In this document: one piece after another, positions 26,730-52,432 of the stretch
How positions within the stretch are numbered: the stretch's first letter is position 1
Layout: every line of letters starts with the position of its first letter
Source of the DNA: a virus
Taxonomy: Duplodnaviria > Caudoviricetes
DNA: 52,432 bases
IMG/VR virus record: IMGVR_UViG_3300043422_000208
Coordinates: 1-52,432 of that record
Direction: 5' to 3' (one strand)
The notes under the pieces: model-generated
Database searches by the model: none
The model's input: only the letters and a program-made list of their open reading frames with translations
Told to the model about the DNA's origin: nothing
Translations under genes and position numbers: made by a program

Positions 26730-26770
26730 TTGTTTTGTTGATTTATTTTGTTGATTTGACTTGTTTTGTT

Positions 26771-28462
26771 TTACTCTACACAATCACAGACAATACCCGA
26801 TTTTACATTAGAAACTCTGTCACCAACAGATTTCCTAATGTAGTCTTGGCTATATTGTTCATGCAGAGAATAGTACTTAGTGATACAAGGAGAATACAGA
26901 AATTTCTTAATCTCTAATTCAGAAGCTTCTTCGATCCAGTCCATTGAGATACAATGAGGGCGACCGAATCTATTCATAAAATCTTGCCAAAGGCTATTTA
27001 ATTCAAAATAGAGATCTTTACCAATATTTGCTAATGTCTCTACATCTCCATGGTAGACTGTAACATTTTTTTCTATATTGCTAACTCGATTCTCAAATTG
27101 GCCTAAAGGTGGCCAAATTCCCCTACATAAAGAATTGCCTTCTCGATCTTCCACATCATAAGCATGAAATTGTGCAGGTTCAACACAATGAATCCTTTCT
27201 AGTTTAGGGAATCCATATTTGGCTGACATCTCATCACAAACTCTAATTGATTCTTGAAATCCTTTTAGAATTGCTTTAATGATCCTTTGTAGTTTTGTTA
27301 GATCTTCATCAAAGACGTACCAATACATTTCTTTTATAATAAACTCTTTACCTGCTTCTACAAATTGTTTATAGGTGAATCCTTCAATGGCAAGCAGATT
27401 AGCTAAACCAAAAACATCTAAACCAATTTGTAGATCTTTTTCTACAGGGATAAAGATACTCCCATCTGTATAATTTCTCCATTCATAGTGTAATTCAATC
27501 AAATTCCTAGCAGCATCAGCAAATGCTTTAGGGATATCATTGATTCTACATAGACCTAAGTTTACTCTCCAAATTAAACAAGTAGCTTTGTGTTCTAGAA
27601 GAATACCATTACAAACGTTTTCATATAGTCCTGGTTGATCAAGAATTTTAGCTAAAAAGCTCGATTCAGAATTACAAGAATCTGCAATTTTTCGTACAAG
27701 AGCAGGATTAGAAAGAACATTTTTATCTATCCTAATTCCTTTTTTATGAGATCCGTCTATATCTACAATAGGCGTATCTAAGTAATCTTCTATGTACTTG
27801 CTTCGATAATCCATAGAAGATACTATAATACCTTTCTTGTATCCTCCTCTTCTCATAACACTATTAAGAGTTCCTAGAAGACGAATTAAATTGTAGATTG
27901 TAGGTGAGTTTAAGAAAATTCCTAGTTGCCTAGAAATATTAATAAAACTTAAAGCACCGCTAGATACTAATCCTTTACTATTCTCTGTACCAGCAGGACG
28001 AAGATTAGAAAAATTAAAAGAAGGATTTTCTCCTCGATCTGCACAATCGATCATGAACTTCCAAGATTCAATAATCCCATCTGTTCCCTCCATAGAATCT
28101 TGAATATCGAACTCTTTGTAATCTACAAATTGTCTTAGTTGATTAGGAGGATCGGTCTCTAGCCGATACTTGATAAACTCCCCATATTCTTCTGAAGAAT
28201 TATCAACAAAACAATCCCAAACAAAATCTTTACGATAGCCTAGATCTGCATCTTGATTAAAAATTACTTTTACACCAGCTCCAGCTTTTAGTGATCTTGC
28301 TGCAAAACTCAGCAGATCAAAAAGATCGCCATTCCACACAAATAAAGTGCAGGATGGCGGCAAAGTGTTTTTTTCTGGATTAAGAAGAAAAGTTCTGATT
28401 CTACCCGGAGCAGTGTTAGTAGATTCTAGTAAATCTTCTTTTTTTAAATTAAAAACTGACAT
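26771..28462 (-). CDS. nrdA: ribonucleotide reductase alpha subunit (cyanophage-type class I, divergent)
   Basis: SCTLFV, DSMEG.DGI.ESW, LRPAGTEN..GLVSSG, RRGGYKKG, NVC, TCL..VNLG, QIGL...GLANLLA, KYY and C-terminal CDC. Confidence 0.88.
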   Translation of the reverse strand: MSVFNLKKEDLLESTNTAPGRIRTFLLNPEKNTLPPSCTLFVWNGDLFDLLSFAARSLKAGAGVKVIFNQDADLGYRKDFVWDCFVDNSSEEYGEFIKYRLETDPPNQLRQFVDYKEFDIQDSMEGTDGIIESWKFMIDCADRGENPSFNFSNLRPAGTENSKGLVSSGALSFINISRQLGIFLNSPTIYNLIRLLGTLNSVMRRGGYKKGIIVSSMDYRSKYIEDYLDTPIVDIDGSHKKGIRIDKNVLSNPALVRKIADSCNSESSFLAKILDQPGLYENVCNGILLEHKATCLIWRVNLGLCRINDIPKAFADAARNLIELHYEWRNYTDGSIFIPVEKDLQIGLDVFGLANLLAIEGFTYKQFVEAGKEFIIKEMYWYVFDEDLTKLQRIIKAILKGFQESIRVCDEMSAKYGFPKLERIHCVEPAQFHAYDVEDREGNSLCRGIWPPLGQFENRVSNIEKNVTVYHGDVETLANIGKDLYFELNSLWQDFMNRFGRPHCISMDWIEEASELEIKKFLYSPCITKYYSLHEQYSQDYIRKSVGDRVSNVKSGIVCDCVE

Positions 28463-28617
28463 GCGAAAACACAATAAAGTTTGTAGTCTTTAGATTATAG
28501 CAAAAAAAGAGAACTTTTGTATAGTACGCCTAAACTAAGCAAGTATGTTAAATTCTTGGTAATAAAGGGCTGTGTGCATATAATGTTTAAGGTTGTTTAA
28601 ATGAAAAATAAAAAAGA

Positions 28618-35100: not shown

Positions 35101-38100
35101 AGCTTCTAAACTAACTGCAAAACAAAATAAAATTTCAGTAACTAACGACCCTACATACTATGCAAACAATGATCTAGAATACACTCCTTCTTCTGAATTA
35201 CCGGGTGAAGCTACTCTTAACTCCCCGTTAAATTTCAGAGTTTCAGATACTGGAGATATCGATCAAAAAACTTTAGATTTTCAGAATGCTGAAGAAATCT
35301 TAAGAGTTAGAGAAGAAGCAATTCAAGCTGCTTTAGATGCTTCAGTTGTAGAAACTCCGAATCTTAATGTTCCTAGTAGACCGATAATTGAAAACTCTTT
35401 TGATGATGAAGATTTTGCAACTGTAACTATTGATGAGGTTTCAGAACCAGTAGTTCCACGCAAAGTAAGAGAAGCAGCAACTTTAGCAGATCAAGCAATT
35501 GATGAGGCTATAAAAGTTTATGCTGCTCTTAAACAGCAACTAAAAGGATTAGTTAAACAAGGGCAAATAGTTGATATTGATCAACTATCTGAAGCTTTTA
35601 AAAACATTCCTTCTGGTGAAAGAAAGAACAAAAAAAGAGAAGAACTGAAAACAGATAAAGAGTTTTTCAAAACTGCTAATCAGAAAACAGATTTAGCAGC
35701 TCAAGCAAATGATCTAGTTAGTCAAGCTCAGGAATTTATTAATAGTGGTCAAGGAGATCCAGCAGCAATTAAAGCAGCTATTGGTAAAATCCTTAGTAAT
35801 CCTAATTTTAAAGCTGCTAGAAAACTCTTAAAGGATGCTGTTAAAGGTATTGAAAGAGAATTAGATAGGCTAGATACTGTTCCTGCTGATGCTTCAGAGG
35901 GAGCAGGGATGACTAAGACTAAATATGGAGAAATGCTAAATCAAAAGATTACAGCATTTAAAGAAAAGCTAAGACAAGTTGAAACAGAAATAGTAAAAAA
36001 AGTTAATGATGTTGGTGAAGCAATAATTCCCGATGTCAATGGTCTTATTGCTGCTTTTAATGATTTGTTCCCTTCTCAGCAAAAAAATGAAGAACTTCCT
36101 TTTGTTAAAACAAGGAATAAAGCAAATCAAAGAATTGAGGAAATCAATACACCTGTTCAAGCTACAACAGATGAAACTAGGAAAAATTCTCTTTCTATTA
36201 AATCTTATGAGATTTCTAGCAGTATCTTAGATGGTGTAAAAGTAACTGATGAAGCTTTTAACGATCTTCTAGCTATAGCTAATTCTTTTGAAGATGAAGT
36301 TAAAAAAGCTGCTGCTATTGTAAAAGCTAAAAGAAAGATTAATGAAGGTAAAAAATCAAACAGTAAAATTGATGAATTAAATAATGGTGATGGTGGAGAT
36401 GGTGATGGTGGTGATAGTGATGGTGATGGTGGAATGGATCCTGAAGATCCTAATTTTAATTACAAAGCAGGATTAGCAAGAAAACAAATCAGAATCGGAG
36501 AAAGACCAGATATCTTGGATCTAAACTCTGCTGTTAATTCTGAGTATGATAATCTTGATGCAGAAGATATTAGATTAAAAGATATTCAAAAACAACAAAG
36601 CATTCTTCTTAAAAATTTAAGAGAAAATGTAGCAACTGCTAAAAGACAGATTGCACAAAATTTTGATGGTGTTGATATCTCTCTTCCTGATTTTAATGAA
36701 GCTGGAATTACTAATCGAGATCAACAACTAGGAATCTCTGATAAGATTCTAAACATCCAACATGCATTTGAACAATGGTGGGATAATCATGATCTTAAAC
36801 AAGCTAAAGGAGACGATCCAGCTCTTAATAACTCTATTGCAAAGATAAAAACTAAAATTGCTTTAGGTGAAGATTCGGGTGGTAATAATCAGGATATTAC
36901 AGATCAAATAAATAAACTTGATCAAACTAACGATGAAGTTAAAAAACTAATCCAATTCCGTCAAAAAGAAGCTAAGGCAGAATTGAAGAGATTTTTACAA
37001 TCCGAAATTCTTAAATCCAACAATGAAATTAGAACTATTGGACAGTACACTTCTGATTTCTCTTATTTTGCTGGCAAAGGTTTAGATGAGGAACTAACAA
37101 AAGCTCTTCTAGATCTAGAACAAGCAAAAGCAAAAGCTCTTAAGAAAGCTACAGAAGAAAATCCAGAGTTTGCTAAAGAACTAGCTAGACAGAAAAGAAA
37201 CTTAACTTTAGGAAAAGAAGTTAGTTTCAGTATGTTAGATTCTTTAGCTGAAAATTCAGATCAAAAACAAAAAGTAGATATTTTAGAAAAGTCTACCAAC
37301 AACAAAGAACTAAAACAAGCTATAGATCAGTCTATTAAAACTGGTAATACTGGAAGTTTAGAAGCTTTAGTAGTTAACGATCTAGAAGGTGCTAAAGAAG
37401 CTTTAGATGATGTACTTAAATCTTTGTCTGAAGATCGAATTAGTAATTACATCAAATCTGTTAAACAGTTCAAAAGAGCTTTAGCAGTTGGTGTAGATAC
37501 TTCTGCTGAAGTTGCTAAAGCTAAAAATAAACTTTCTTACGAAGAATCTCAAAATCCAGATGTTCTTATTGCTGATGGAGATTTGCAAAAAACTAAACAA
37601 AAACAAAGACTAAAAGAACTAGTAATCAACAAAGATTATGATGCTTTACAAGCTGGTGCTGATAGTGGTTTAGAAGGGTATTCTAAAGCTTTAAATGCTC
37701 TTAAGAAATCTCAGGAGAATCTAGGAAGACGTTACAGCGACTATGTAAAAGAAATAAATGCTTTGATTGCTCAAAATAGAGTATTTGAAGCAGAGAGTAA
37801 ATTAAACACATTAAAAGGATTTCGTGGCCTTAGTGTAGGTCAAAAGGAATCTCTTAATGCTTTGTCTGGAAAGATATCGTCTAAATCTGATAATGCTCAA
37901 CTTGCAGATGTCAGAGATGCAATTGCAGCAGAAAAGATTCGCAATATTAGGGGTTTAACACCTGATCAAAATAACGTATCAGCTATAAATAGATCTAGAA
38001 CTTTCAATGATGACAGTAAAGCTACTGAACTTGATACAATAGTTAATGAATACAAGAAATGGGCAGCTAAAGAAAAACGAGCTTTACAAAAAGCTACGTT

Positions 38101-41100
38101 TGATGATGCTAAGTTGGAATTTCGCTTAGGTAATTCTGATCCTTTACAGGCTATAAGTGAATCTGTTAGTGAATTTGCAAAAGAAGCAAAAGCAATCTTA
38201 GCAAAAGCTACTGCTGAACTTTCTTCCCTCACCCCAGAAGAAAGAGCTTCTTTAAATGTCTATCAGTCTGCTTCTAAAAGAGCATTAAGTAGTGGTAAAG
38301 AAGAAGAAGTTGAGAAAGTTTTAGAAGAGTACAAACTTAGAAAACTAAAATCTGAAAACTCTATATATAACGATAAATTCGATACAATTACAAATCAACT
38401 AGGAAAAGGACAAGCAAAAGAAGATAATGGACTTAGGATTCAAGATCTAGCTATTGCATTCTACACTTTCTTTAATGGCTTATCTATGGCTTCTCAAGCT
38501 TTAGGTAACTTAGCTAAAGTTGCTTCTGCTTATGAGATTTCTTTAAATCGATTAACTGTATCTTCTGATGGAAGATTAAGTCAAGTTAGTAACGATGTAA
38601 GCTTTTCTGAAAGAGTATCTAATCAATTCTCTCAAAATAGACAAGAAGTTTTAAACACGGTAGCGGGTTACAAGATCGCTAACCCTACAACCTACGACAG
38701 ATTCGGAACTCAAGTTTCTAAACCTGTATCAGATGATGGTATTAACAAAATCATTCAAGGTTTAACCGCTGCTGGTGTAGCTAACCAAATCTCTGCTGCA
38801 CAAATGCAAGATGCTACTACTGCTGTTCAGCAAATGTTGAATAAAGGTGTAGTTCAATCTGAAGAATTGAAACGTCAGCTATCTAATACCATCCCTGGTG
38901 CATTTAACCTATTCGCGCAATCTCAAGGTGTTAGTCCTAGAGAATTAGAAGGAAGATTGAAAAGGTCTGAGGTAACTTCTGAGAATATTGTAGACTTTGG
39001 CGATTTACTTGATCGTATGTTTTCTGAAGCTGCTAAAAAAGCAACTTTGGTAAAATCAGTAAATACTCTTGTTAACAAATCTCAAGAAGTAGTACAATCT
39101 GGATCTGCTGTACCAGGAGCAATCACCCAAGGAATATTAGATGCTGGTGTCAATCCTCTAGTTGTAGGATTATCTAAAAATGCTGCTAGTGCTACTCCGG
39201 GATTATTGTTGATTGGCGGTACTGTAGGATTAAGTTTATTGGGAGGAATCATAGAGGGATTGAAAAAATCTGATGGAATTAATTCTATCGGAAAAGATAT
39301 CTTAGCTAAATTCTATTCTCAAAAAGACGGATTTACTTCTTTAGGTAGAGCTAGTGGTACTTTGTTTGGAGCTGCATTTTTAGCTAGTGTTGGATCTGCT
39401 GCTGGTGGTGAAGGTCTAGATAAATTGTTAGGCCGAGTAACTAAGAATATAGGAATTGGAATTGACAAGACTCTAAATGCTGCTACTGGTGGAAAACCTG
39501 AATCTGTAGGATCTGGAATATCTGCTGTTCAAAAGGCTACTCTAGGAAATGATATCGTTTCTCAGATTTTACCTCTTGCTGCTGGTCTCTATGGTGTTGC
39601 TCAATTAACAGGATATAAGCCTTCTTCTAAAGCACTAGACGATAGATTGGAGAGGATCAGAAAAAATTCTGATGGTAATTACCAAGTACCTTATACTAGA
39701 TTAGACACAAAGCAAGAAAAATCTTACAGCTTAGGTTTAATTGACGAAAAAACAAACTCAGAACATATTAAAAAATCTACTTCTGGAATTACAGGAGCAT
39801 TAAAAGGTACTGGAGAGTTCTTAGGCACAGCTATGATGTCTGCTGTTGCTGGATGGCCAATGATTCTATTAACGATTGGATCATCTATGGCTTTGTATGC
39901 TTTAGGTAATCAAAAGTTTGTAGATAGTTTTACTGAAAATGTAAAAGAGATTCTAATCAAACTAGAGAAAACTAAAAACGATATAGGTGTAAAACCATCT
40001 AAGCCTTTAACTGTTGATCAACTTGGAAACAGAGAAGTAGATCCTAATAATGGACAAACTAATAAATTTTTAGATTACCTAAGAAACATCCAAACAGATC
40101 AAGAAGCTTTTAATAGTGGAGATTTTAAAGCTCTTACTGATAGAGGATTAGCAGATAGATATAAAGAACTTAAAAAAATTAAAGATAATCCAGCCGATAA
40201 TCCTAACATTAGAATAAACCCAGTAGAGTTTTCTAAACTAGAAAGTGAAGTTAATCGAAGATTAAAAGGAGGACAACAAGTATCGACTGACTACAATAAA
40301 GTTTCTACTGATTATCAATTTGCACAATCTTCTGAAACTGCTAAAGGTATTGCAACATCTATAAAAGACATCTTAGCTCAAAACACTAGAAATCCTGTAG
40401 GAATGGATGCTCAAGGTGTAGATGCCCAGTCTAAGCTTACTGCTGCAATGGCTAAAAAACAGGAGATATATAACAAAGGAATCCTAACTAGGGAAGATGA
40501 AGATGCATTAGAAGCTCTTAATTCTGAAATTACAAAATATAACTCTATCTATAAAGAATCTGTTCGGAAATTTACTAAACGTACTACCGAGTTAGAAGAT
40601 ACTGTAAAACAAGCAGATAGCGCAATTGAAGAATATAAAAAAGTTCCTGAGAAATTCAAACAAACTAAGGAATACAGAGATACTTTATCTGAATTAGAAG
40701 GTAAAAGAGATCAGGCTAAAACACAATTAATAGCTTCTCGCAAAGAAACTGAAAGAGTCGATCCTGCTACACAAGCAGCTTTGGCAGCAGAAAAATTTGC
40801 TAGAAAAACTAACTACATTAGTGATCTGAATATCTCCCTAAATAGTGAAAAAGCTAGAGAGAGTAGAAAATCGGATATACAAAGATTGACAGAAGACAAT
40901 AATAGAGGAGCAGATAAAAGATCTGCTGATTTAACTTTTAGATTTGCTTCTGGTGATTTAAAAATTGCTGAAGAAAAATTAAAAGTAACTTCGGAATACT
41001 ACAAATCTCTATTCTTACTGCCTAAATCTTCTGAAACAGATAAAAACATAGAAGAAACTAGAACGAAAGTTTTAGAAGCTACTACAGCAGTTGAAGAAGC

Positions 41101-43942
41101 AAAAACTAAAAAAATTAAAGCTTATCTAGATAAAAGAATAGTATTTGAACAAAAAGCTATTGAGGAACTAGAGCTAAAAAGAACTAGGCAAGATCGTGCT
41201 TTAGGTGTTGTAGAATCTAAAGCTAGAGCTGTAGCGCCTACTAATGATTCTGGAGTTGATAACTATCTTAATAACTATAGATCTGCTAATACAAATCAAA
41301 GAGCTTTAGATCTACTTGTATCTCAAATAAAAGATCAAGAACAAATAGTAAGAAAAACGGAAATCAACCGTGAAGCTCAACAAGAAAAACTTCTTGACAT
41401 GAGAGCTGCTGCTGAAGCTAAAACTACAGAACTGTACTTATCTAATTTACAAAAAGTTAGATCTGAAATTGAAGCTTTAAACTCCATAGCTCAGTCTATC
41501 GTTGCTGCTGCTGTAGCTTTAAGAGATGTTAAGAAAAATCGAGATGATCAAAGAAGTAGTGAAATTGTCGGTAACTCTGTAAAGCCTAGATTAGGTGATC
41601 TCTACTCTACCGATATGTCTTTGGAGGAATCCAGACTAAGACTACAGAGAGCTAGGATCGATGCTAGATCTTTTCAACAAACAGGTCTTTCTGCGGAGTT
41701 CAACCTATTAAACAACGAGAGATCCAGACAAACTGGATTCGGTGAAGGTGGAAAAGTTGTTCCTCTTCAATCGCTAAGTGAGTCTACTCGAAAATACATC
41801 GAGTCTCTATCTCCTGAAGAAATTCAACAAGCTATTGTAGACGCTACAGCAGCTATGGGAGTTACTAAAGAGATATTAATGAGGCAAGGCACAGGAGCTG
41901 ATACCTCTGATCTTGAAGGTCAAAATAGTTTCAGAATCGGTAATTCTACTCCTCAATCTATTCAATCAGTTGAAGAAGGACAAAGTTTAATTAATTTCTT
42001 AAACTCTGCTAAAGCTTTTATTGAACAAAGACAATCTCAACAAGATAACATCAAAAAATTAGAATTAGACTTTAGAAACTTAGCTGTAGGTAAAGTAAAT
42101 ACTTACAACACTGTTGCTAAAGATACAAGAATAGCAAATGATAACACTGTAAACGATAATAAAGTAAAAGATCAAGAACAACAAGATGCATCTAACAACT
42201 TAAGAAATAGGTTAGCTTCTGCTGGAATAACTAATCCGATAAACACACTAGTTCTAGATATTAATGCTCAACTAGATAGGAATGAAACTGATGCTAAGAA
42301 AAGAGCAAATGCAAATATTGCTTCTAGAAGAGATGCAGATGAGAAAATTAAAAAAATCAATGCAGATTTTGAAGCATCTAGACAAGGTTTTATAGATGCT
42401 GGAATTTTACCAGAAGCAACAGCAGGTAAAAATCGTCAAATTGCTGAGATAAATAGAGGAGTACAAGTAAATCTACAAGTAGATAGAGGAGAAGCTATTA
42501 ATGCTCTTGTTCCATCTATTGCAGAATTATTTAATTCTCTTACTAGATCTCTTCCTAGACAAAGACAAATTCAAAACGATTACGAAGATAAAAGAATTGC
42601 AAGACAAGAAATTCTTACTAGTGCTAATGTAAATTCTGGGATGACTGAAGAAGACAGATCTAATCAAGACATTGCTAAAAAAGTCAGAGATTTTAATTAT
42701 TCTTTGGATGCTTCAGTCTTATCTATATCTCAAGAAGCAGCAATTCAGTTTAATAAAAAACCTGGAGATCCTAATGCTAGAGCTGATGTTTCTAGTATCT
42801 CTAAAAGATTATTAGAAACTAATGATCCATCTAAAATAAAACTAGGAAACACAATCAATGACATTTTAAGAGAATTAGGATCTAACGGACTTCTTACTGC
42901 TAATCAGCTTGCAGAACTAGTAGAGAAACTTAAAAAACTAGGTTTTACTGCTAAAGATGTTGCAGCTCTCCAAGAATCAGCAAGGATTAAAATTATTAGA
43001 GCTAGAAAACTAGCTTTAGATACTCAAGATCAAGATATATCTGAAGCTAGAGAGGAAATGAATCAAAAACAATCTGATCAAATTTCCCCTTATGTCTCTG
43101 ATCGAATTATGCGAATTAGAAACAGAGTTAAAGCTGAACAAATCAATAATAGAAGAAGACTAGCTTTAGATGCTATTGATCAAGATGAGGATAATGATAC
43201 CTCAGCTAGAACACCAGAAAGAGATAAGAAATACAACAATCGAAGAGAACTAGAAACCATTAAAGCTCAAACTCAGCTTAATGATCTACAATCTCCATCC
43301 AGAAAATTAGCTAAAGATATGGCTGAAATTCTCCGTAGTGGATTAAAATTCTCTCAAGTATTTCGAGAAGCGTTATCTGATGGAAAATGGGGTGATGCTT
43401 TAAAGAAAATGTTCGGAGGTATTTTAGACAGTATCGCTGATTACTTTTCTAATAAAGCTGCTGATGCTCTCAGCAAAGCTTTAGGATCTATGCTTGATCA
43501 AGTATTAGCCTCTATCAATTTTGGAGGAATAGGCAAAGTATTCGGGTTCAGTACTGGAATGTTACCTTCTAAAGCCACTGGAGACTTTGAGCCTATCCAT
43601 GGATCTTCCCTACCTAACACTCCTTCACAGGATTATAGAGAACCGACCAGATCTAAATTTGCTATGATCAACGGTCAAGCATCTATCGTAAATGCTACGG
43701 AATGGGTTGTCTCTGGTGCAGATGCTCATGGGTTTGTGAAATATAAGCAAGAGGAGAATAACAGAAAACAAAATGAAGCTGTTCAATCGATTTACTCTTC
43801 TAATATAAATAATACTTCTAATTCAAATTCAACAACAAATCATAACTACTTAATTCAAGAAGACACATTTAAAAGATCTGCTTCTACAAATATCGTAATT
43901 AATGATAGAGAAGAGGCAAATCGTAGAAGATTTAAAAGATAA
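32105..43942 (+). CDS. tape measure protein (3945 aa)
   Basis: Tape-measure domain AVQQMLNKGVVQSEELKRQL..IPGAF, a Gly/Ala hydrophobic region, long coiled coils and a lambda-H-like C-terminus. Confidence 0.88.
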   Translation: MAYQINIDVNSQKLSSVSGAITESVSKIEAAVGKLVTQTNEAGKVKVENLNVDIEKIKTSLSSLAGEINSVKLAESLNKLESAIQNVTIKFSEINVDSSAISRTINEELAKIKITVSDVALDLKTDITKALKTEGTITVGAMQLNLKSLIQTAVNKEGVISVSNFSLNLAEVIQSELARKITIKDLALELPVDEITSAISIENAANFGKVINDAINRLSSRIATEVTELKLFSESTITVGNVDLTKSIQEKLDSVEINIDRILLGELINQRLQQQGIVLDEISIDLNPLIGAKLAEIKFAEIDTSLFVTEVSNYIQKVATAIKNSSIETAKPVDVEPVAISTSNTKKAIEAAIEVQEIVLNLQKLIQAEVTAKTTINPAVLKLQGFLDRELAKVNTLTSDIKVSQNIPSGVEAVVDTSEVNTEIKIISEEPNILQADIDLTGINKQVNLISEEPHNIEAEVTTTGVNNQVNLIADLSSNVEADVKATIDTTNVNPQVDLIHEPTTTLQARINTADVNTTVNLSSSAPINIDTTPVSPDVQLVSSGTSIIPAVVDLTGVNRDVKLVSSEVNILPADIDVTEINKKVNLVSEETVRINVDMPNAALTALGFIGDVDNIAQELIDTFRGITQLLTSQLSSITVDLDPLRNSFQITIDRISGLIRSIELPDTGSGYEPIEQPIVPLSGSQQKTNDITNLFSGAIADQEEIIRLAQEGGDPKTNKEIQKLIKGKIDKLGQMLNLLSEIELPDPASLMQIATEFSNLKQLANTSMSSNTKGSFSSVLGVKAGGKANSDQAKAYEAVYTPVGQLPTDKINNLDLIPNLQKSRLTDRVKQIEAGTKPADFYAASGESGRFTPSEMQARNENAAGGFYTTASQELAEIRKEAHKAFENFKKENLQEYEKFISELHQQYAIKGSLFTRPTGDIKNFVERYPYLAKQELNAYKEITPWQNNNPESSVEPMDWETETKAEDIKPSTDSKTRVTNKIVEILNKDISDIFSDVASKLTAKQNKISVTNDPTYYANNDLEYTPSSELPGEATLNSPLNFRVSDTGDIDQKTLDFQNAEEILRVREEAIQAALDASVVETPNLNVPSRPIIENSFDDEDFATVTIDEVSEPVVPRKVREAATLADQAIDEAIKVYAALKQQLKGLVKQGQIVDIDQLSEAFKNIPSGERKNKKREELKTDKEFFKTANQKTDLAAQANDLVSQAQEFINSGQGDPAAIKAAIGKILSNPNFKAARKLLKDAVKGIERELDRLDTVPADASEGAGMTKTKYGEMLNQKITAFKEKLRQVETEIVKKVNDVGEAIIPDVNGLIAAFNDLFPSQQKNEELPFVKTRNKANQRIEEINTPVQATTDETRKNSLSIKSYEISSSILDGVKVTDEAFNDLLAIANSFEDEVKKAAAIVKAKRKINEGKKSNSKIDELNNGDGGDGDGGDSDGDGGMDPEDPNFNYKAGLARKQIRIGERPDILDLNSAVNSEYDNLDAEDIRLKDIQKQQSILLKNLRENVATAKRQIAQNFDGVDISLPDFNEAGITNRDQQLGISDKILNIQHAFEQWWDNHDLKQAKGDDPALNNSIAKIKTKIALGEDSGGNNQDITDQINKLDQTNDEVKKLIQFRQKEAKAELKRFLQSEILKSNNEIRTIGQYTSDFSYFAGKGLDEELTKALLDLEQAKAKALKKATEENPEFAKELARQKRNLTLGKEVSFSMLDSLAENSDQKQKVDILEKSTNNKELKQAIDQSIKTGNTGSLEALVVNDLEGAKEALDDVLKSLSEDRISNYIKSVKQFKRALAVGVDTSAEVAKAKNKLSYEESQNPDVLIADGDLQKTKQKQRLKELVINKDYDALQAGADSGLEGYSKALNALKKSQENLGRRYSDYVKEINALIAQNRVFEAESKLNTLKGFRGLSVGQKESLNALSGKISSKSDNAQLADVRDAIAAEKIRNIRGLTPDQNNVSAINRSRTFNDDSKATELDTIVNEYKKWAAKEKRALQKATFDDAKLEFRLGNSDPLQAISESVSEFAKEAKAILAKATAELSSLTPEERASLNVYQSASKRALSSGKEEEVEKVLEEYKLRKLKSENSIYNDKFDTITNQLGKGQAKEDNGLRIQDLAIAFYTFFNGLSMASQALGNLAKVASAYEISLNRLTVSSDGRLSQVSNDVSFSERVSNQFSQNRQEVLNTVAGYKIANPTTYDRFGTQVSKPVSDDGINKIIQGLTAAGVANQISAAQMQDATTAVQQMLNKGVVQSEELKRQLSNTIPGAFNLFAQSQGVSPRELEGRLKRSEVTSENIVDFGDLLDRMFSEAAKKATLVKSVNTLVNKSQEVVQSGSAVPGAITQGILDAGVNPLVVGLSKNAASATPGLLLIGGTVGLSLLGGIIEGLKKSDGINSIGKDILAKFYSQKDGFTSLGRASGTLFGAAFLASVGSAAGGEGLDKLLGRVTKNIGIGIDKTLNAATGGKPESVGSGISAVQKATLGNDIVSQILPLAAGLYGVAQLTGYKPSSKALDDRLERIRKNSDGNYQVPYTRLDTKQEKSYSLGLIDEKTNSEHIKKSTSGITGALKGTGEFLGTAMMSAVAGWPMILLTIGSSMALYALGNQKFVDSFTENVKEILIKLEKTKNDIGVKPSKPLTVDQLGNREVDPNNGQTNKFLDYLRNIQTDQEAFNSGDFKALTDRGLADRYKELKKIKDNPADNPNIRINPVEFSKLESEVNRRLKGGQQVSTDYNKVSTDYQFAQSSETAKGIATSIKDILAQNTRNPVGMDAQGVDAQSKLTAAMAKKQEIYNKGILTREDEDALEALNSEITKYNSIYKESVRKFTKRTTELEDTVKQADSAIEEYKKVPEKFKQTKEYRDTLSELEGKRDQAKTQLIASRKETERVDPATQAALAAEKFARKTNYISDLNISLNSEKARESRKSDIQRLTEDNNRGADKRSADLTFRFASGDLKIAEEKLKVTSEYYKSLFLLPKSSETDKNIEETRTKVLEATTAVEEAKTKKIKAYLDKRIVFEQKAIEELELKRTRQDRALGVVESKARAVAPTNDSGVDNYLNNYRSANTNQRALDLLVSQIKDQEQIVRKTEINREAQQEKLLDMRAAAEAKTTELYLSNLQKVRSEIEALNSIAQSIVAAAVALRDVKKNRDDQRSSEIVGNSVKPRLGDLYSTDMSLEESRLRLQRARIDARSFQQTGLSAEFNLLNNERSRQTGFGEGGKVVPLQSLSESTRKYIESLSPEEIQQAIVDATAAMGVTKEILMRQGTGADTSDLEGQNSFRIGNSTPQSIQSVEEGQSLINFLNSAKAFIEQRQSQQDNIKKLELDFRNLAVGKVNTYNTVAKDTRIANDNTVNDNKVKDQEQQDASNNLRNRLASAGITNPINTLVLDINAQLDRNETDAKKRANANIASRRDADEKIKKINADFEASRQGFIDAGILPEATAGKNRQIAEINRGVQVNLQVDRGEAINALVPSIAELFNSLTRSLPRQRQIQNDYEDKRIARQEILTSANVNSGMTEEDRSNQDIAKKVRDFNYSLDASVLSISQEAAIQFNKKPGDPNARADVSSISKRLLETNDPSKIKLGNTINDILRELGSNGLLTANQLAELVEKLKKLGFTAKDVAALQESARIKIIRARKLALDTQDQDISEAREEMNQKQSDQISPYVSDRIMRIRNRVKAEQINNRRRLALDAIDQDEDNDTSARTPERDKKYNNRRELETIKAQTQLNDLQSPSRKLAKDMAEILRSGLKFSQVFREALSDGKWGDALKKMFGGILDSIADYFSNKAADALSKALGSMLDQVLASINFGGIGKVFGFSTGMLPSKATGDFEPIHGSSLPNTPSQDYREPTRSKFAMINGQASIVNATEWVVSGADAHGFVKYKQEENNRKQNEAVQSIYSSNINNTSNSNSTTNHNYLIQEDTFKRSASTNIVINDREEANRRRFKR
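33347..33898 (+). repeat. about eight degenerate ~23-aa protein repeats in the tape measure N-terminal region
   Basis: ID(T/L)T.VN..V.L.SEE...(L/I).A repeated. Confidence 0.8.
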
Positions 43943-45726: not shown

Positions 45727-46725
45727 TTAAACTGCTACTTCTTTCTTAGCTTCATTCAATTTAGCTAAATGTGCATCAACTTCTTTTTGAGAGGCGATAA
45801 GGAAAGAGTAGGATTTATAAGGATTCTGCTTTTCTTTAGAGACTTTATCCACAGCTTTACTACATTTTACCCAAATTGGTAGCTTATTAGCTGCTTTAAG
45901 CAATTTAGTTAGTTGAGGTTCTGACCAGTAATCATTACCATTAATAGTGATTTTGACAATATACCCCGATCCATCCTTCTTAGTTTTAGCGCTGTAATCA
46001 TCAATAAGGTAAATTCCTCCAACCTCCAATTCTAGTTTTTCAATAGAGCCACCAGAAATACTAATCTCTCTCTTTCCAAAGAAAATTTTTCCTTCTTTCA
46101 GAGTAACAATATCACCATTTTTTACGATATCTTTTTCAACAATAACAGAAAATTCACCTAAATCTAGTAAAGTTGAATTTTTAAGATTAGATGTATCTCT
46201 AACAGTAAAATCACCTTCTTGACCATCTGCTGGAATAGGAAAATAGACTGCTGTTACTGATGCTGGCTTAGGGTAAATAATCTTTTTAGAGTACCCTTCT
46301 TCCCCAAATTCACCTTCTTCAACTATGCTAATCTTGCTAGCAGAGTTGATATCTTTTGCCTTTGCACCAGATCGAAGCAAGGTAGAAAATTCAATAACAT
46401 CTTCTTCACCATCGATTTCTAAAGTATAAGTTAAACCGTACCAGAGTTCTTTATTTGTACCTTCATTTTGTTTTACAGTTACTTGATCTGTAACAATAGG
46501 GTAGAAATCACCAAAAATTGTAATACCTAAAACACCTGCTTTATGGCCAATAGATGGGAAAAATGGATTTTCACACAAATAAGAAATACCGATGGTCTTC
46601 GGAACTTCAGCAATCTCAAGTAAAACCTGAGCTGCATTGACGATTGTAGGATTGTCCTCTGTAGCCAAAGAAGGATTCTCACGAAGAACCTTCAACATAT
46701 CACGCAAACTAACTAAAACTGCCAT
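45727..46725 (-). CDS. hypothetical protein, possibly ssDNA-binding
   Basis: Own promoter, near the polymerase, beta/OB-like composition; the function is a guess. Confidence 0.4.
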   Translation of the reverse strand: MAVLVSLRDMLKVLRENPSLATEDNPTIVNAAQVLLEIAEVPKTIGISYLCENPFFPSIGHKAGVLGITIFGDFYPIVTDQVTVKQNEGTNKELWYGLTYTLEIDGEEDVIEFSTLLRSGAKAKDINSASKISIVEEGEFGEEGYSKKIIYPKPASVTAVYFPIPADGQEGDFTVRDTSNLKNSTLLDLGEFSVIVEKDIVKNGDIVTLKEGKIFFGKREISISGGSIEKLELEVGGIYLIDDYSAKTKKDGSGYIVKITINGNDYWSEPQLTKLLKAANKLPIWVKCSKAVDKVSKEKQNPYKSYSFLIASQKEVDAHLAKLNEAKKEVAV

Positions 46726-46807: not shown

Positions 46808-47323
46808 CTATTTCAAATAAATTCTTTTATGATACATTGGCCTTAAATTAGGAATATTGAACTCTTTTGGTACATACACACCCGTCTCTACTTTATCTTT
46901 AAAAGTAGAATAAAGTGTTCTAAGCGCTTGATGATACTGTTCAATATCTTCAAAGTTATCTTTATTTATTTCTATAAAAAAAGGTTTTCCTGTTATCGGA
47001 TGTTCTTTTCTATAGATTTCACCAGTTTCTATTTCCAAAGATGTCCTAATTATCTTCTTTTTAAAACGATAAGATAGGTTTTCTTCTGGATTTAAGATCT
47101 GCACTCCTACTACTGATTCCTCATCTACACTAAAAACAGATTCATAAAAATACTTTAAGTATTCTTGAAAATATAAATACACATTAAAAGGACTTTTAGG
47201 ATTATCATAATCTTTAAAATCAATCAAAAACATTAAAAATCCACCATCCGTACAAGATGTCAAATTAAATTTCTGTAGAAGAATAAATTTCCTAACTAAA
47301 AATTCTTTGTTAAATGAAATCAT
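46808..47323 (-). CDS. hypothetical protein
   Basis: 171-aa ORF with GAGG Shine-Dalgarno, downstream of the polymerase. Confidence 0.6.
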   Translation of the reverse strand: MISFNKEFLVRKFILLQKFNLTSCTDGGFLMFLIDFKDYDNPKSPFNVYLYFQEYLKYFYESVFSVDEESVVGVQILNPEENLSYRFKKKIIRTSLEIETGEIYRKEHPITGKPFFIEINKDNFEDIEQYHQALRTLYSTFKDKVETGVYVPKEFNIPNLRPMYHKRIYLK

Positions 47324-47332
47324 AAATACCTC

Positions 47333-49912
47333 TTAATCAAATTCAAAATAAAATTCATCTTCTTCAGGAATATCGTCATCCTCATCCTTAAGAATTTCTT
47401 CTATATCATCAGAATCTAAATCTAAAGATTTATACCCTTTTGGCATAGAAACTGTAACAGCATCTAATTCATCTTTTGGAGATTTAACCCAACGATTAGT
47501 AACATCTATAGAACTAGGGAACCACATATGTTCAGGAACTGTGTCTAGATCCACATTCCAAGTCTCAAAGAAAATTTTATAAGCTTCATAATGTGCCCTA
47601 TTTGCGTAAATTTGAAAATCTCTTAAGTTATTTCCTTCATCTTTTACCCACCACGCAAACATATCATGACAATCAAAAGCTTTTCTACAAATAAGACCAT
47701 ATTTTTCTTCATATTCTGCTACTTTTGTTGTAATAATAAACTTAAAATCTGCATCTCCAGATTGGATTGTAGAATTTCCTTTCGTTGCCATATGCTCCTT
47801 ACCAGATACCTGAAAACTCAGAACATTAGGTAAATCTCTACCTAAAACAGAAGATTTCATATACCTGTATTTCCTCCAATACCCACCAACAGGAAACCAT
47901 CCCATAGCACAATCAGCCTGACAATTAAAACCATGGCTTCCCATTCCACCAAAAAACTTACCTGTACGATCTCTAATTCCCTTGTACCCTTCATGCATAG
48001 AAGTAGCCAAAGATAGAGCTACACCTGCAATATTAGCAATTTTCTTTGCAGAAGCACCAAATAAAGCTGCAAATTGTGTAGTTTTTCCTACCAGGTATCC
48101 TTTTTCCATGTTAGCTGGATCATTGGCATCATATCCAGCAGATTTAGCTATTTCATGAGCAATAGAAGTAAATTTCTTTTTATCTCCCAAAATAGCTGCT
48201 TTAGAAAATTCTGTTTGTAATAAACTTGTCTTTCTAGCACAAAGTTCTCTAGCTAACTTTGCATCACACATTACAGCAAAAATACGAAGCTGACAAGAAT
48301 CTAAATCGAAATTAACTAACTTCCATCCTGAAGGTGCTTTAACTAATCCTTGTGTTTCTGATCCAACTTTTGTAGGAATCAATTTACTCAACACTAACCA
48401 AACTCGATCCACACTTCTACCACTAACAGCAGCAGCTAAAGAAGGTCTAGGAATTGTAATTAAATTTCCGTGGATTTTTTTAATGAAAAGAGAAAGTAAT
48501 CTAGTTCTTATTGAAGTCCAAAAGGTTGTAGAAACTTGTTTTTGAATTAATTCTTGTCCTTCAGCTAAACTAGAAGTTAGTATCCCTTGTTTCCAATAAA
48601 TCTCAAATTTAGCACCAAAAAAAGAAACAATATTCTTAAACTTCCCACTGATATTAGTAGGATTATCAAAAATCTCAGCTCCTCTATTTTCCCCCATCAC
48701 TTCTTCATAAACATCTCCTTCTTTTGATTCTAAAGTATGCCAATAGAGTTTTTCTTTATCTCCAGGCTTATCAGGATTCATAGCTTCAATTCTTTTCAAT
48801 GGTTTATTTAACCAATGCAATCTTAAAGCTATTGCAGTTTCCTTTCTAGTAATTCCAACTTTTTTAGGATCAAACCATTTAGGTAATCCTGCTTTCAATT
48901 TTGCTGCTTTTGTCCATAGATTCCAATCTTGGCCATCCCAAGATCCTGAAGTTTCAATATGAAGTCTTTGTATTTTTTCAGCTTGCAATAACAAATCTTC
49001 CTTAATTTGATTGTACAGATCCTCAATTGCTTGAATATGGGAATACCATTGAGAATCTAAATACATGATAGGAGTACTACCATGCAACAACCCTAAAAAC
49101 ACATAAGGGTTGATCTCAAATTCTAAGATAGGCTCTATAATACATACTGTAGCTGCTACGTCAAGGTAGTTATACCTAAACGCTTGCATGATATGTTCAT
49201 CCCCTTCGTAAATAACATCTGGAGCTAACTTTAAAATTTCTTCTTCTGATAAACCTTCTTTCTTTAATTTCTTCCTTTGTTTCTCTATAGACTTTTTAAT
49301 TACAGTGTTAGAGAAATCTAAATCTAGCCATTGTTCTTCATCAGAATCTATAAAAATCTGGACAAAAGACTTATCCATTTTTTTTCCAGTAAAATGATTA
49401 TACAATCCCGCAAGATCCAACAAAGAAGATTCCTTAAACCAAGGGATCTTAGGATTAGATCTCATTAATCCTTCTTTCAATGGATGTAATCTTAAAGAAG
49501 CAAGAGAGTGCGTACAAATACCTTTTACATAAGTAATCGGATCATAAGTATTTGCTATAAAACTCATTTCAAAACAAACTCTATGGGCAGCAATTAAAGT
49601 TTCATCTTCAAACCTAATTAAACCTTCTCCTTTAGAACTAGCAAAAAATACAAACCAAGTTCGTAATTCTAAATGAAAAGCAGAAGCTAGAGCTAATGTT
49701 TTGTTACTATTAACAGATTCTACATCTGTAACTATAGTCCCTGCTGGAACTGAAGAAACAGGAATAAATTCAAAATTATCAGCATCCCATCTATGCCAAA
49801 CGTCTTTTACAGAAGGATAGCCAATAGGAATATCAGGTTGAGTATAATCTAAATCTTTTAAACGATCAATTATATATTCAAAATTAGTAAAAGATGTATA
49901 ATTAAACTGCAT
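47333..49912 (-). CDS. family A DNA polymerase, mitochondrial Pol gamma-like
   Basis: ExoI DVE, ExoIII YNYLDV, and Pol gamma signatures LRLHW..KPL, TFWTSIRTR, GRSVDRVWL...KVGSE...VKAPSGW.LV.FDLDS, IQSGDAD, CHD. ATG 49912 preferred. Confidence 0.9.
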   Translation of the reverse strand: MQFNYTSFTNFEYIIDRLKDLDYTQPDIPIGYPSVKDVWHRWDADNFEFIPVSSVPAGTIVTDVESVNSNKTLALASAFHLELRTWFVFFASSKGEGLIRFEDETLIAAHRVCFEMSFIANTYDPITYVKGICTHSLASLRLHPLKEGLMRSNPKIPWFKESSLLDLAGLYNHFTGKKMDKSFVQIFIDSDEEQWLDLDFSNTVIKKSIEKQRKKLKKEGLSEEEILKLAPDVIYEGDEHIMQAFRYNYLDVAATVCIIEPILEFEINPYVFLGLLHGSTPIMYLDSQWYSHIQAIEDLYNQIKEDLLLQAEKIQRLHIETSGSWDGQDWNLWTKAAKLKAGLPKWFDPKKVGITRKETAIALRLHWLNKPLKRIEAMNPDKPGDKEKLYWHTLESKEGDVYEEVMGENRGAEIFDNPTNISGKFKNIVSFFGAKFEIYWKQGILTSSLAEGQELIQKQVSTTFWTSIRTRLLSLFIKKIHGNLITIPRPSLAAAVSGRSVDRVWLVLSKLIPTKVGSETQGLVKAPSGWKLVNFDLDSCQLRIFAVMCDAKLARELCARKTSLLQTEFSKAAILGDKKKFTSIAHEIAKSAGYDANDPANMEKGYLVGKTTQFAALFGASAKKIANIAGVALSLATSMHEGYKGIRDRTGKFFGGMGSHGFNCQADCAMGWFPVGGYWRKYRYMKSSVLGRDLPNVLSFQVSGKEHMATKGNSTIQSGDADFKFIITTKVAEYEEKYGLICRKAFDCHDMFAWWVKDEGNNLRDFQIYANRAHYEAYKIFFETWNVDLDTVPEHMWFPSSIDVTNRWVKSPKDELDAVTVSMPKGYKSLDLDSDDIEEILKDEDDDIPEEDEFYFEFD

Positions 49913-50765
49913 TATGAAACCTTGATTTATAAATGTAAGTAGAAATAAGTTCAAAAAACTCTTGAGTATCTAGGTACTTAAGTTCTCCATCTACATCATA
50001 ATAAGGATAATCTAAAAACTCAAGAAATTTTTTTACACGTAATGAGATATCTTCAAGATTAGATTTAGGTTTTCTCTTCAAAATAAATCTAACTTTTTCT
50101 TCTACTGTAATGTAATTAGGTGTAGCTAAAACATCTTCTGATAGATTCAATCTAAGAATACTTTTAAAACTATGAATATTTTGATAGCTCCATCTAAAAG
50201 TAGAGATACTAAAAATCATCGTAATACCCTTACAAGAGATATTTACTTCTTCAGAACCGTAAGAATCCATCCTCATAGTAGCAATATCATTAATTGCCAT
50301 AGGATCTACTAAAGTGTAACCTAAACACCTAGCCATTTTTATAACATTAAAACTGCTAGGTCTTTGAGGTTCTGGTAAATTATAATTAATAAAAAAGATA
50401 TTTTTTAAATTTTTCATATTCAAAAAATATCTAATACCTTCTGAAGAAAAAGAATAAACCATCTTTTTTAATCTATCTTCTACAAGAGAATTATGATCTT
50501 TATTTGAATGTCTTTCAATTTTATATAAAAAACTTAATTCTGCAATAGAGATAAACAATGTTCCTATATAGAAGTCCTCATGTAATTTTAATTTTTCTGA
50601 CTCAGACATCTTATTCAAAGAATCAAAAACATCTGAATTAAAATAAACATCCTCATTACATTCTTGAAAAGGTAAACCAAAATGCTTAGAAAAGAAATTA
50701 TTCATTTCTTGCTGTCTGTCTAGAAATATGCCAGTTTTAATCATTTTTAATTCCTTTGTTTTCAC
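49902..50765 (-). CDS. hypothetical protein; likely start at ATG 50744
   Basis: ORF overlapping the polymerase start; no motif recognised. Confidence 0.6.
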   Translation of the reverse strand: MKTKELKMIKTGIFLDRQQEMNNFFSKHFGLPFQECNEDVYFNSDVFDSLNKMSESEKLKLHEDFYIGTLFISIAELSFLYKIERHSNKDHNSLVEDRLKKMVYSFSSEGIRYFLNMKNLKNIFFINYNLPEPQRPSSFNVIKMARCLGYTLVDPMAINDIATMRMDSYGSEEVNISCKGITMIFSISTFRWSYQNIHSFKSILRLNLSEDVLATPNYITVEEKVRFILKRKPKSNLEDISLRVKKFLEFLDYPYYDVDGELKYLDTQEFFELISTYIYKSRFHNAV

Positions 50766-52305: not shown

Positions 52306-52432
52306 TCCAAACTTAACTTTTTTCCAATTCCATCTTCCACCTATTACTTACTACCTGTCCACAATACCACATAAAATAATCCCACACAACCCTTACATAT
52401 TCCCTCTCCCAGCCCTACTTCTAATAAAATCT
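52306..52432 (-). repeat. Right inverted terminal repeat (127 bp)
   Basis: Exact reverse complement of 1-127. Confidence 0.95.

What the first reader, a model, noticed from the sequence alone, without database searches (positions are those of the whole stretch)
47655..48310. Non-canonical polymerase active site: steric gate E to Q, motif B R to Y and Y to F, motif C HDE to HDM
Seen: motif A DLDSCQL (Pol gamma DVDSQEL), motif B YLVGKTTQFAALFGA (canonical RxxxKxxxY/FxxxYG) and motif C CHDM. Upstream, ExoII reads HRVCFE instead of HNxxFD. Both catalytic Asp residues and the motif B Lys are retained. Established: the Glu excludes ribonucleotides and contacts the motif B Tyr, and the Arg binds the triphosphate. 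Inference: coordinated remodelling of the dNTP pocket, giving altered sugar/base selectivity or lower fidelity.
Basis: partly seen in the sequence, partly recalled or inferred. Interest (0 to 1): 0.7.

Follow-up and report, generated by a model that had tools for sequence, protein, structure and literature searches.

The report
Phage polymerase lineage with rewired active site
This freshwater phage's mitochondrial-type (Pol gamma-like) DNA polymerase belongs to a small, old lineage that has swapped several active-site residues usually described as invariant in this enzyme family, which makes it a natural test of how these polymerases hold the incoming nucleotide.

Summary
ORF 47333-49912(-) encodes an 859-aa Pol gamma-like family-A polymerase. 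It carries DLDSCQL, YLVGKTTQFAALFGA, CHDM and HRVCFE at the stated places.

This is not an alignment slip. MAFFT, HMMER and hhalign all pair Q541 with the steric-gate Glu, Y606 with the O-helix Arg and F618 with the O-helix Tyr.

It is also not a one-off.
- Among 152 proteins, 17 form one well-supported branch.
- All 17 have Q/Y/F. The other 135 have E in 132/132, R in 130/132 and Y in 127/131 filled rows.
- The same branch also replaces the Pol gamma D930, H932 and R1190 equivalents. It gains invariant K624 and D720 and rewires ExoII.
- Both catalytic Asp, the motif-B Lys and the four exonuclease acidic positions (the ExoII Asp as Glu) stay.
- The AlphaFold2 model is confident (pLDDT 92.7) and matches Pol gamma best.

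HDM is the weakest point: that residue varies within the branch.

Best reading: an active replicase in which charged pairs around the nucleotide were replaced by neutral residues. Altered substrate choice is untested. Novelty: new variant of a known kind. Interest 0.62.

The parts
47333..49912 (-). Pol gamma-like family-A DNA polymerase gene (ATG at 49912, 859 aa, stop included). The ORF list opens at a TTG at 49954. The ATG lies 8 nt upstream of the end of ORF 49902-50765, so the two genes overlap.
   Evidence: Profile against solved structures: yeast Mip1 E 5.8e-58 over positions 40-843. AlphaFold2 pLDDT 92.7, pTM 0.90. Foldseek best match is a human Pol gamma ternary complex, E 3.4e-37, TMq 0.74.
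49715..49726 (-). ExoI DVES (D63, E65), canonical
   Evidence: D and E in 15/15 filled clade rows
49568..49585 (-). ExoII HRVCFE: R111 replaces Asn and E115 replaces the metal-binding Asp
   Evidence: R 14/15 and E 15/15 in the clade; the other rows have N 100/121 and D 118/124
49361..49363 (-). V184, where the canonical relatives have a near-invariant Arg in the exonuclease domain
   Evidence: V 14/15 in the clade; R 119/122 in the others
49160..49174 (-). ExoIII YNYLD (Y247, D251), canonical
48287..48307 (-). Motif A DLDSCQL: catalytic D536 kept; Q541 sits at the steric-gate Glu position (human E895)
   Evidence: Q 17/17 in the clade; E 132/132 in the others
48155..48169 (-). N-helix TSIAH (aa 582-586): S583 replaces the Asp that pairs with the O-helix Arg (human D930). 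A585 replaces the dNTP-contacting His (human H932).
   Evidence: S/T 15/17 and A/P 17/17 in the clade; D 128/132 and H 129/132 in the others
48053..48097 (-). Motif B / O-helix YLVGKTTQFAALFGA: Y606 replaces Arg (human R943), K610 is kept (K947), F614 is at the variable F/Y position (Y951), F618 replaces Tyr (Y955)
   Evidence: The O-helix is modelled as helix 599-617.
48041..48043 (-). K624, a clade-invariant Lys just after the O-helix
   Evidence: K 17/17 in the clade; the others mostly G (50), H (15) or T (14) of 131
47837..47839 (-). R692, a clade-specific Arg
   Evidence: R 16/17 in the clade; the others mostly A, C or S
47753..47764 (-). QSGD (Q717-D720): conserved Gln kept; D720 is a clade-invariant new acidic residue
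   Evidence: D 17/17 in the clade; G 114/130 in the others
47660..47671 (-). Motif C CHDM: H749 and catalytic D750 kept; M751 at the Glu position (human E1136)
   Evidence: the third residue varies in the clade (M4 E2 Y2 A7 D1 F1); E 110/128 in the others
47483..47488 (-). V809-K810: the conserved Arg before the conserved Lys (human K1191) is lost; the Lys is kept
   Evidence: R 113/118 in the others; V/L/T/C 15/16 in the clade; K 16/16

Best explanation
The gene encodes the phage's replicative, proofreading DNA polymerase. It is a member by descent of the Pol gamma-like branch of family A. It belongs to an old, monophyletic sub-lineage, called QYF here.

In this sub-lineage the charged and hydrogen-bonded pairs around the incoming nucleotide were replaced together by neutral residues:
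- Asp-Arg (human D930-R943) became Ser/Thr-Tyr.
- Glu-Tyr (E895-Y955) became Gln-Phe.
- His (H932) became Ala or Pro.
- The Arg before K1191 became an aliphatic residue or Thr.
- The motif-C Glu became free to vary.

New invariant residues K624 and D720 appeared, along with near-invariant R692. The first-shell catalytic set is untouched: both Asp, the motif-B Lys, and the Arg, Gln and His that contact the primer terminus.

Inferred mechanism: two-metal DNA synthesis from ordinary dNTPs continues. The triphosphate is held by K610, the Tyr606 hydroxyl, backbone and metals instead of an Arg/His/Lys clamp. The Gln keeps the bulk of the steric gate. The likely result is a weaker, less ionic grip on the nucleotide (higher Km, perhaps lower intrinsic fidelity), backed by a retained exonuclease whose site is rewired in parallel (N..D to R..E, R184 to V).

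Shown: the residues, their conservation, the single origin and the fold. Inferred: activity, substrate and kinetics.
For: Homology and fold:
- The profile of the 17 matches yeast Mip1 at E 5.8e-58 and human POLG at about 1e-56.
- AlphaFold2 gives pLDDT 92.7 and pTM 0.90, with only the acidic C-terminal tail disordered.
- Foldseek ranks 1-34 are all Pol gamma (best TMq 0.74); T7 DNA polymerase follows at TMq about 0.4.

Signature:
- Q541, Y606 and F618 are 17/17 in the clade, against E 132/132, R 130/132 and Y 127/131 in the other 135 rows.
- Of 49 positions that are at least 93% one residue in the canonical rows, 11 are replaced in the clade. These include D583, H585, R606, Y618, E541 and R809.
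- Of 48 clade-invariant columns, 28 are shared with the canonical rows. These include D63, E65, Y247, D251, R499, D536, D538, K578, K610, Q717, H749, D750 and K810. Eleven are clade-specific.
- That is the pattern of a selected, working site, not decay.

Single origin:
- FastTree on 140 rows gives one branch, support 99, length 0.6.
- IQ-TREE (LG+C20) on 63 rows with 13 trait columns removed gives SH-aLRT 99, length 0.53.
- Members are only 27-36% identical to P0001 outside its near kin, so the signature has been kept through deep divergence.

Pairwise logic:
- In T7 the Asp (D504) contacts the triphosphate-binding Arg (R518) (PMC3241644, passages).
- One otherwise canonical protein, P0068, independently shows the same Asp-to-Thr plus Arg-to-Tyr pair.

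Context:
- It is the only DNA polymerase detectable in the record. There is no family-B hit, and the family-A model found only this gene, below its cut-off.
- It sits with a separate 5'-3' exonuclease, an SF1 helicase, ribonucleotide reductase and a dNMP kinase-like gene.
Against: Published single substitutions at these positions cripple canonical enzymes.
- Klenow E710Q has overall Kd 230 uM against 0.83 uM for the correct dNTP, a low incorporation rate, and is a mutator (PMC3715850).
- Human H932Y and R943H keep less than 1% activity (PMC4207668, introduction).
- The O-helix Arg is called non-mutable in Taq Pol I (PMC8599892).

No enzyme of this lineage has been assayed, and I found none in a cultured phage.

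I could not read model coordinates. Whether Tyr606, K624, R692 or D720 reach the nucleotide is therefore unknown.

CheckV rates the record 66% complete, so a second polymerase or nucleotide-modifying genes could lie off the contig.

Gene neighbourhoods of the other members could not be fetched.
Confidence: 0.6

Rival explanations
1. The rewired pocket serves a different substrate preference. Candidates are base- or sugar-modified dNTPs, ribonucleotides or diphosphates. On this reading the phage DNA is chemically non-standard.
For: The changed residues are those that contact the sugar and the triphosphate (PMC3241644 and PMC9307957, passages). Phe at the last motif-B position was previously noted as a substitution shared only by the two 2-aminoadenine polymerase (DpoZ) clusters (PMC10201439 and PMC8599892). 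The record carries a dNMP kinase-like gene and a weak MazG-like ORF.
Against: The record has no PurZ, ThyA or ThyX hit. The DpoZ authors judge the Phe unlikely to set base choice. Gln is the same size as Glu, and Klenow E710Q does not favour rNTP closure. None of the changed residues reads the base edge. The MazG match is below its cut-off.
Confidence: 0.2
2. The polymerase site is catalytically weak or dead. The protein is kept for its exonuclease, for strand displacement, or as a scaffold, and another polymerase (from the host or the missing part of the genome) copies the DNA.
For: Each of E-to-Q, R-to-X and H-to-X alone is severely damaging in canonical enzymes. The record may be incomplete.
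Against: Both catalytic Asp, the motif-B Lys and the primer-terminus Arg, Gln and His are 17/17. The replacement residues are themselves invariant, not drifting. The fold is complete with high confidence. No other polymerase is found in the record.
Confidence: 0.13
3. Artefact: a misalignment, an assembly error or a pseudogene.
For: Single-sequence Pfam matches are weak (PF00476 11.4 bits, PF18136 13.8 bits, both under their cut-offs).
Against: Three aligners agree. The frame is open for 859 codons. An 81% and a 51% relative from other contigs keep the residues. In all, 27 of 27 lineage sequences that cover motif A have Gln, and 28 of 28 that cover motif B have Tyr and Phe; several of these are near-copies. 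Four sequencing runs from two samples hold the gene's sampled words at share 1.00, though they may be the source.
Confidence: 0.02

Closest known systems
Mitochondrial DNA polymerase gamma catalytic subunit (human POLG, yeast Mip1)
   Same: Best sequence and fold match over nearly the whole length, covering the exonuclease, spacer, palm, fingers and thumb. It shares the catalytic Asp pair, the motif-B Lys, ExoI and ExoIII, and the Lys equivalent to K1191.
   Different: It lacks the equivalents of E895, D930, H932, R943, the Y955 hydroxyl, R1190 and (in this protein) E1136. ExoII reads HR..FE, not HN..FD. It is shorter (859 against about 1240 aa). No accessory subunit is known.
Pol gamma-like polymerases of cultured cyanophages (S-CBWM1 gp77, S-TIM5 gp158; also A-HIS2, Mic1)
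   Same: They are phage-encoded Pol gamma-like enzymes and the nearest hits among deposited phage genomes, at 22-24% identity.
   Different: The two I aligned are canonical. S-CBWM1 has DYDGQE, GTDPH, ARDLAK..F...YG, HDE and HNISFD. S-TIM5 has DFDAQE, GTDMH, SRAVAK..Y...YG, HDS and HNVAYD. No cultured phage with the QYF signature was found. A-HIS2 and Mic1 were not aligned.
DpoZ, the 2-aminoadenine-specific family-A polymerases (phiVC8-like and Wayne-like)
   Same: Phe replaces the 'otherwise strictly conserved' last Tyr of motif B. A non-Glu third residue in motif C occurs there as well (PMC10201439 and PMC8599892, passages).
   Different: DpoZ keeps the O-helix Arg (stated for phiVC8 R440). 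It belongs to other family-A subfamilies and travels with PurZ, which this record lacks.
Engineered Klenow-fragment mutants E710Q and Y766F
   Same: They carry the same two substitutions at the steric-gate pair.
   Different: In Klenow, E710Q alone is a poorly active mutator and Y766F is near wild type (PMC3715850). Here both are fixed in nature together with at least five further changes.
T7 DNA polymerase (gp5)
   Same: Next-best fold family after Pol gamma. It is the source of the structural roles assigned to the Asp-Arg pair and the Arg/Lys triphosphate contacts (PMC3241644).
   Different: TMq is only about 0.4, and T7 has canonical motifs. That T7 has canonical motifs is recalled, not checked here.

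Membership tests
Family A DNA polymerase, Pol gamma subfamily (by descent) | Significant sequence homology over the exonuclease and polymerase domains | tested here: met
   Profile of the 17 against Mip1 gives E 5.8e-58 over positions 40-843, and against human POLG about 1e-56. hhalign against 30 canonical Pol gamma-like proteins gives probability 100, E 1e-103.
Family A DNA polymerase, Pol gamma subfamily (by descent) | Pol gamma fold | tested here: met
   AlphaFold2 pLDDT 92.7. Foldseek ranks 1-34 are all Pol gamma, best E 3.4e-37 and TMq 0.74.
Family A DNA polymerase (curated models) | Pfam PF00476 or PF18136 above the gathering score; an NCBIfam model | tested here: not met
   P0001 scores 11.4 bits against a 34.3 cut-off and 13.8 against 26.7. 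Of the 17, 11 match PF00476 and 6 match PF18136 at E <= 0.01. No NCBIfam hit for 3 of 3 members tried.
Family A DNA polymerase (conserved active-site signature) | Catalytic Asp in motif A and motif C; motif-B Lys | tested here: met
   D536, D750 and K610 are 17/17.
Family A DNA polymerase (conserved active-site signature) | Steric-gate Glu in motif A, called universally conserved in PMC3715850 | tested here: not met
   Q541 is 17/17; E is 132/132 in the other rows.
Family A DNA polymerase (conserved active-site signature) | Motif B R-x3-K-x3-[FYL]-x3-Y-G | tested here: not met
   The clade has Y-x3-K-x3-[FY]-x3-F. Arg and the last Tyr are replaced in 17/17; the Gly is kept in 13/17.
Family A DNA polymerase (conserved active-site signature) | Motif C H-D-E | tested here: not met
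   P0001 has HDM. The Glu varies within the clade and is also absent from some canonical relatives and from T5 and DpoZ, so it is a weak criterion.
DEDDy 3'-5' proofreading exonuclease domain | ExoI D-x-E, ExoII Asp, ExoIII Y-x3-D | tested here: inconclusive
   D63, E65, Y247 and D251 are kept. The ExoII Asp is Glu in 15/15, with Asn to Arg beside it. The acidic character is kept, but activity is untested.
DpoZ (2-aminoadenine DNA polymerase) | Co-occurrence with PurZ; membership of the phiVC8-like or Wayne-like clusters | tested here: not met
   No PF00709 match at E <= 1 in the record. The nearest relatives are Pol gamma-like. Only the motif-B Phe is shared.
T7-like single-subunit RNA polymerase | No exonuclease domain; last motif-B Tyr kept to read the 2'-OH (recalled) | tested here: not met
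   A full exonuclease domain is present and the Tyr is Phe. No RNA polymerase appears among the listed fold matches.

The most novel reading that the evidence does not exclude
The QYF lineage is a natural family-A replicase that has given up the canonical Arg/His/Glu/Tyr nucleotide clamp. It binds its substrate in a distinct way and has relaxed or shifted recognition of the sugar-triphosphate part. Substrates might then include ribo-, dideoxy- or otherwise modified nucleotides, or diphosphates. These phages may build or tolerate non-standard DNA.
Probability: 0.2. Interest if true: 0.85.

Novelty: new variant of a known kind. Interest (0 to 1): 0.62.

Why it matters
Mechanistic accounts of family-A polymerases, including the disease biology of human POLG, treat several residues as fixed parts of the machine. 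These are the steric-gate Glu, its Tyr partner, and the O-helix Arg with its Asp and His neighbours.

The papers I read say so directly:
- E710 and Y766 are 'universally conserved' (PMC3715850).
- The Arg is 'non-mutable' in Taq (PMC8599892).

Here a lineage has replaced all of them at once and kept the replacements through deep divergence. If the enzyme is active, it shows which contacts are truly required. It also offers a natural scaffold with an uncharged nucleotide pocket for enzyme engineering. And it gives a set of compensating changes against which single pathogenic POLG substitutions (H932Y, R943H, Y955C, E895G) can be understood.

The lineage also sits at or below the detection limit of the curated family models. 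That may be why surveys have not described it.

Tried and rejected
Gene neighbourhoods of relatives. None could be retrieved.
- The search for related loci in viral contigs found nothing with A1, A3, A4 or P0008.
- Genome contigs found nothing with A3 or A6.
- Metagenome contigs gave one 1566-b fragment, L001.
- So I could not test whether a second polymerase or modification genes co-occur with the lineage.

2-aminoadenine or thymidine-modified genome. The record has no PurZ, ThyA or ThyX, so I rejected this as far as a record rated 66% complete allows.

A second polymerase in the record. There is no family-B match. The family-A model found only one sub-threshold candidate.

Word-indexed homologue searches. 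They returned few rows: 3 and 5.

Sequencing runs. No RNA holder was listed. Laying four runs' contigs showed only short pieces, nearly all under 90% alike. The main contig did not appear, so nothing could be concluded about the motif codons.

Atlas search. It only restated the family-A kinship.

Literature. Eight full-text searches found no description of a natural family-A polymerase with Gln, Tyr or Phe at these positions. These searches cover open-access text only. I read passages, not whole papers, and supplementary files (for example the motif logos in the supplements of PMC10201439 and Table S2 of PMC3715850) were not seen.

Model coordinates are not exposed. Distances from Tyr606, K624, R692 and D720 to a bound nucleotide could not be measured.

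Full report
WHAT IS THERE

The window is a whole virus record of 52,432 b with about 27-36% G+C. ORF 47333-49954(-) reads 859 aa from the ATG at 49912 (P0001).

- ExoI DVES, aa 63-66.
- ExoII HRVCFE, aa 110-115.
- ExoIII YNYLD, aa 247-251.
- Motif A DLDSCQL, aa 536-542 (nt 48287-48307).
- Motif B YLVGKTTQFAALFGA, aa 606-620 (48053-48097).
- Motif C CHDM, aa 748-751 (47660-47671).

IDENTITY

Single-sequence family models barely see the protein:
- PF00476 scores 11.4 bits and PF18136 13.8 bits, both under their cut-offs.
- There is no NCBIfam hit.
- PHROG 22619 'DNA polymerase' matches at 1e-23.

Direct comparison with solved structures finds human Pol gamma at E about 2e-9. That alignment pairs DLDSCQL with DVDSQEL and CHDM with IHDE.

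A profile built from the 17 closest relatives removes any doubt. It matches yeast Mip1 at E 5.8e-58 across positions 40-843 and human POLG at about 1e-56.

An AlphaFold2 model built from 88 sequences is confident, with mean pLDDT 92.7 and pTM 0.90. Only the acidic C-terminal tail is disordered. Its 34 best Foldseek matches are all Pol gamma structures (best E 3.4e-37, TMq 0.74). T7 DNA polymerase follows at TMq about 0.4.

THE RESIDUES ARE A LINEAGE SIGNATURE

An exhaustive HMMER search of 1.84 billion representatives gave 351 relatives at E <= 1e-3, of which the best 150 were listed.

I aligned P0001, those 150 and P0003 (152 rows) and tabulated the key columns. Rows P0001-P0017 share one pattern:
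- Gln at the steric gate, 17/17.
- Tyr at the O-helix Arg position, 17/17.
- Phe at the last motif-B Tyr, 17/17.
- Arg (14/15) and Glu (15/15) in ExoII.

The other 135 rows have E in 132/132, R in 130/132, Y in 127/131, N in 100/121 and D in 118/124 filled cells.

hhalign of the 17-row profile against 30 canonical rows reproduces each pairing independently of MAFFT.

Twelve further cluster members and two more representatives show the same residues wherever they cover the site. Gln is in 27/27 and Tyr/Phe in 28/28; several of these are near-copies.

The two cultured cyanophage enzymes I aligned, S-CBWM1 gp77 and S-TIM5 gp158, are canonical.

ONE ORIGIN, LONG RETENTION

The trait columns were removed before tree building.
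- FastTree (140 rows, 378 columns) puts the 17 on one side of a branch, with support 99 and length 0.6.
- IQ-TREE with a site-heterogeneous model (63 rows chosen from the 152, 13 trait columns dropped) agrees, with SH-aLRT 99 and length 0.53.

Within the branch, identities to P0001 fall to 27-36%. Yet Q541, Y606, F618, K624 and D720 are among only 26 invariant columns.

The nearest canonical sisters (P0019, P0043, P0036, P0048) keep E, R, H, D and Y but already lack the motif-C Glu.

THE REMODELLING IS WIDER THAN REPORTED

Of 49 positions that are at least 93% one residue in the canonical rows, 11 are replaced in the lineage:
- D115E
- G148 (variable)
- R184V
- L363 (variable)
- E541Q
- G565L/M
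- D583S/T
- H585A/P
- R606Y
- Y618F
- R809 to V/L/T

By motif spacing these map to human E895, D930, H932, R943, Y955 and the Arg before K1191. The numbering of those human residues comes from passages of PMC9307957, PMC3241644 and PMC4207668.

Gains are K624 and D720 (both 17/17), R692 (16/17), K510, and N417 in place of a common His.

Counting the motif-C Glu, three acidic and three basic side chains (E, D, E; R, H, R) have gone from the pocket. That is a roughly charge-balanced loss of ion pairs.

One pair is documented. In T7 the Asp (D504) contacts the triphosphate-binding Arg (R518) in the closed complex (PMC3241644). One otherwise canonical protein, P0068, shows the same Asp-to-Thr plus Arg-to-Tyr double change on its own. 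This supports pairwise compensation.

WHAT STAYS

The following are retained: D536, D538, D750, K610, R499, K578, Q717, H749, N713, K810, and ExoI and ExoIII. This is not the pattern of a decaying active site.

WHAT THE LITERATURE PREDICTS

I read passages only.
- PMC3715850 calls E710 and Y766 universally conserved in the family. It reports E710Q as a mutator with overall Kd 230 uM against 0.83 uM for the correct dNTP and a low incorporation rate. Y766F is close to wild type. E710Q shows no improved closure on rNTPs.
- PMC4207668 states that H932Y, R943H and Y955C leave less than 1% activity.
- PMC8599892 calls the O-helix Arg non-mutable in Taq. It notes Phe at the last motif-B position as the one change shared by both DpoZ clades, and motif-C Ser in DpoZ, phiJL001 and T5.
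- PMC10201439 describes 19 family-A subfamilies with strict conservation of the catalytic residues. It says the function of phage Pol gamma-like enzymes remains to be proven.

Each change alone should therefore hurt. Fixed together and conserved, they imply compensation.

The equivalence of these residues to Klenow R754 and H734 is recalled, not taken from a call.

CONTEXT

The record encodes:
- a DNA methyltransferase, terminase, head protease, major head protein and HNH endonuclease;
- a stand-alone 5'-3' exonuclease (PF02739);
- class I ribonucleotide reductase subunits, an endolysin, an SF1 Dda-like helicase and a dNMP kinase-like protein;
- a 3945-aa tape-measure-like ORF.

No family-B polymerase, PurZ, ThyA or ThyX is present. 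The terminase has only 24-28% identical relatives among deposited phages. Four DNA runs from two freshwater samples hold the gene, though they may be its source.

READING

Most likely (0.6), this is the phage's working replicase, with a nucleotide pocket rebuilt from neutral residues.

A changed substrate preference (0.2) or a catalytically weak protein kept for other roles (0.13) cannot be excluded. Both need an enzyme assay, a structure or the relatives' genomes. Artefact is effectively excluded.

The weight placed on HDM, and the step to altered sugar or base selectivity, are not supported by what could be tested.

Noticed in passing
window 1-127 and 52306-52432: A perfect 127-nt inverted terminal repeat, purine- and G-rich, unlike the rest of the genome. 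A length of 127 equals a common largest k-mer of metagenome assemblers (recalled). It may therefore be a graph artefact or the inner edge of a longer true repeat. That would fit the 66% completeness estimate.
   Followed up: partly
window 32105-43942 (+): A single 3945-aa ORF takes up 22.6% of the record. It matches tape-measure families only weakly (phrog_2335 1e-14 over residues 1718-2901; PF20155 40.5 bits, just under its 41-bit cut-off).
   Followed up: partly
window 18726-19358 (-): A 210-aa ORF with a weak MazG-like nucleotide pyrophosphohydrolase match (PF03819, E 0.008, under the cut-off). It is of interest only if the polymerase proves to have unusual substrate needs.
   Followed up: no
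window 49902-49912: The polymerase ATG (49912) lies inside the end of the upstream 287-aa ORF 49902-50765, which has no family match. This suggests coupled translation. The flanking ORFs 46808-47323 and 45727-46725 also have no family match.
   Followed up: no
protein P0068 (representative library): An otherwise canonical Pol gamma-like protein (Glu, His and Tyr kept) independently carries Thr and Tyr in place of the Asp-Arg pair. Its sister P0074 is canonical at the positions tabulated.
   Followed up: partly
window 25908-28474 (-): The ribonucleotide reductase pair is very divergent. The large subunit matches its PHROG only at 1.6e-8 over residues 283-463 of 567.
   Followed up: no
window 47333-49954, runs X1-X4: The same freshwater runs contain short contigs, nearly all under 90% identical to the polymerase gene. 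Diverged relatives of this phage probably co-occur there.
   Followed up: no
L001 419-1564 (+): A partial lineage member (ExoI VDVET, ExoII AHRATFE) on a 50% G+C metagenome contig. At least the ExoII part of the signature is therefore not tied to A+T-rich genomes.
   Followed up: partly
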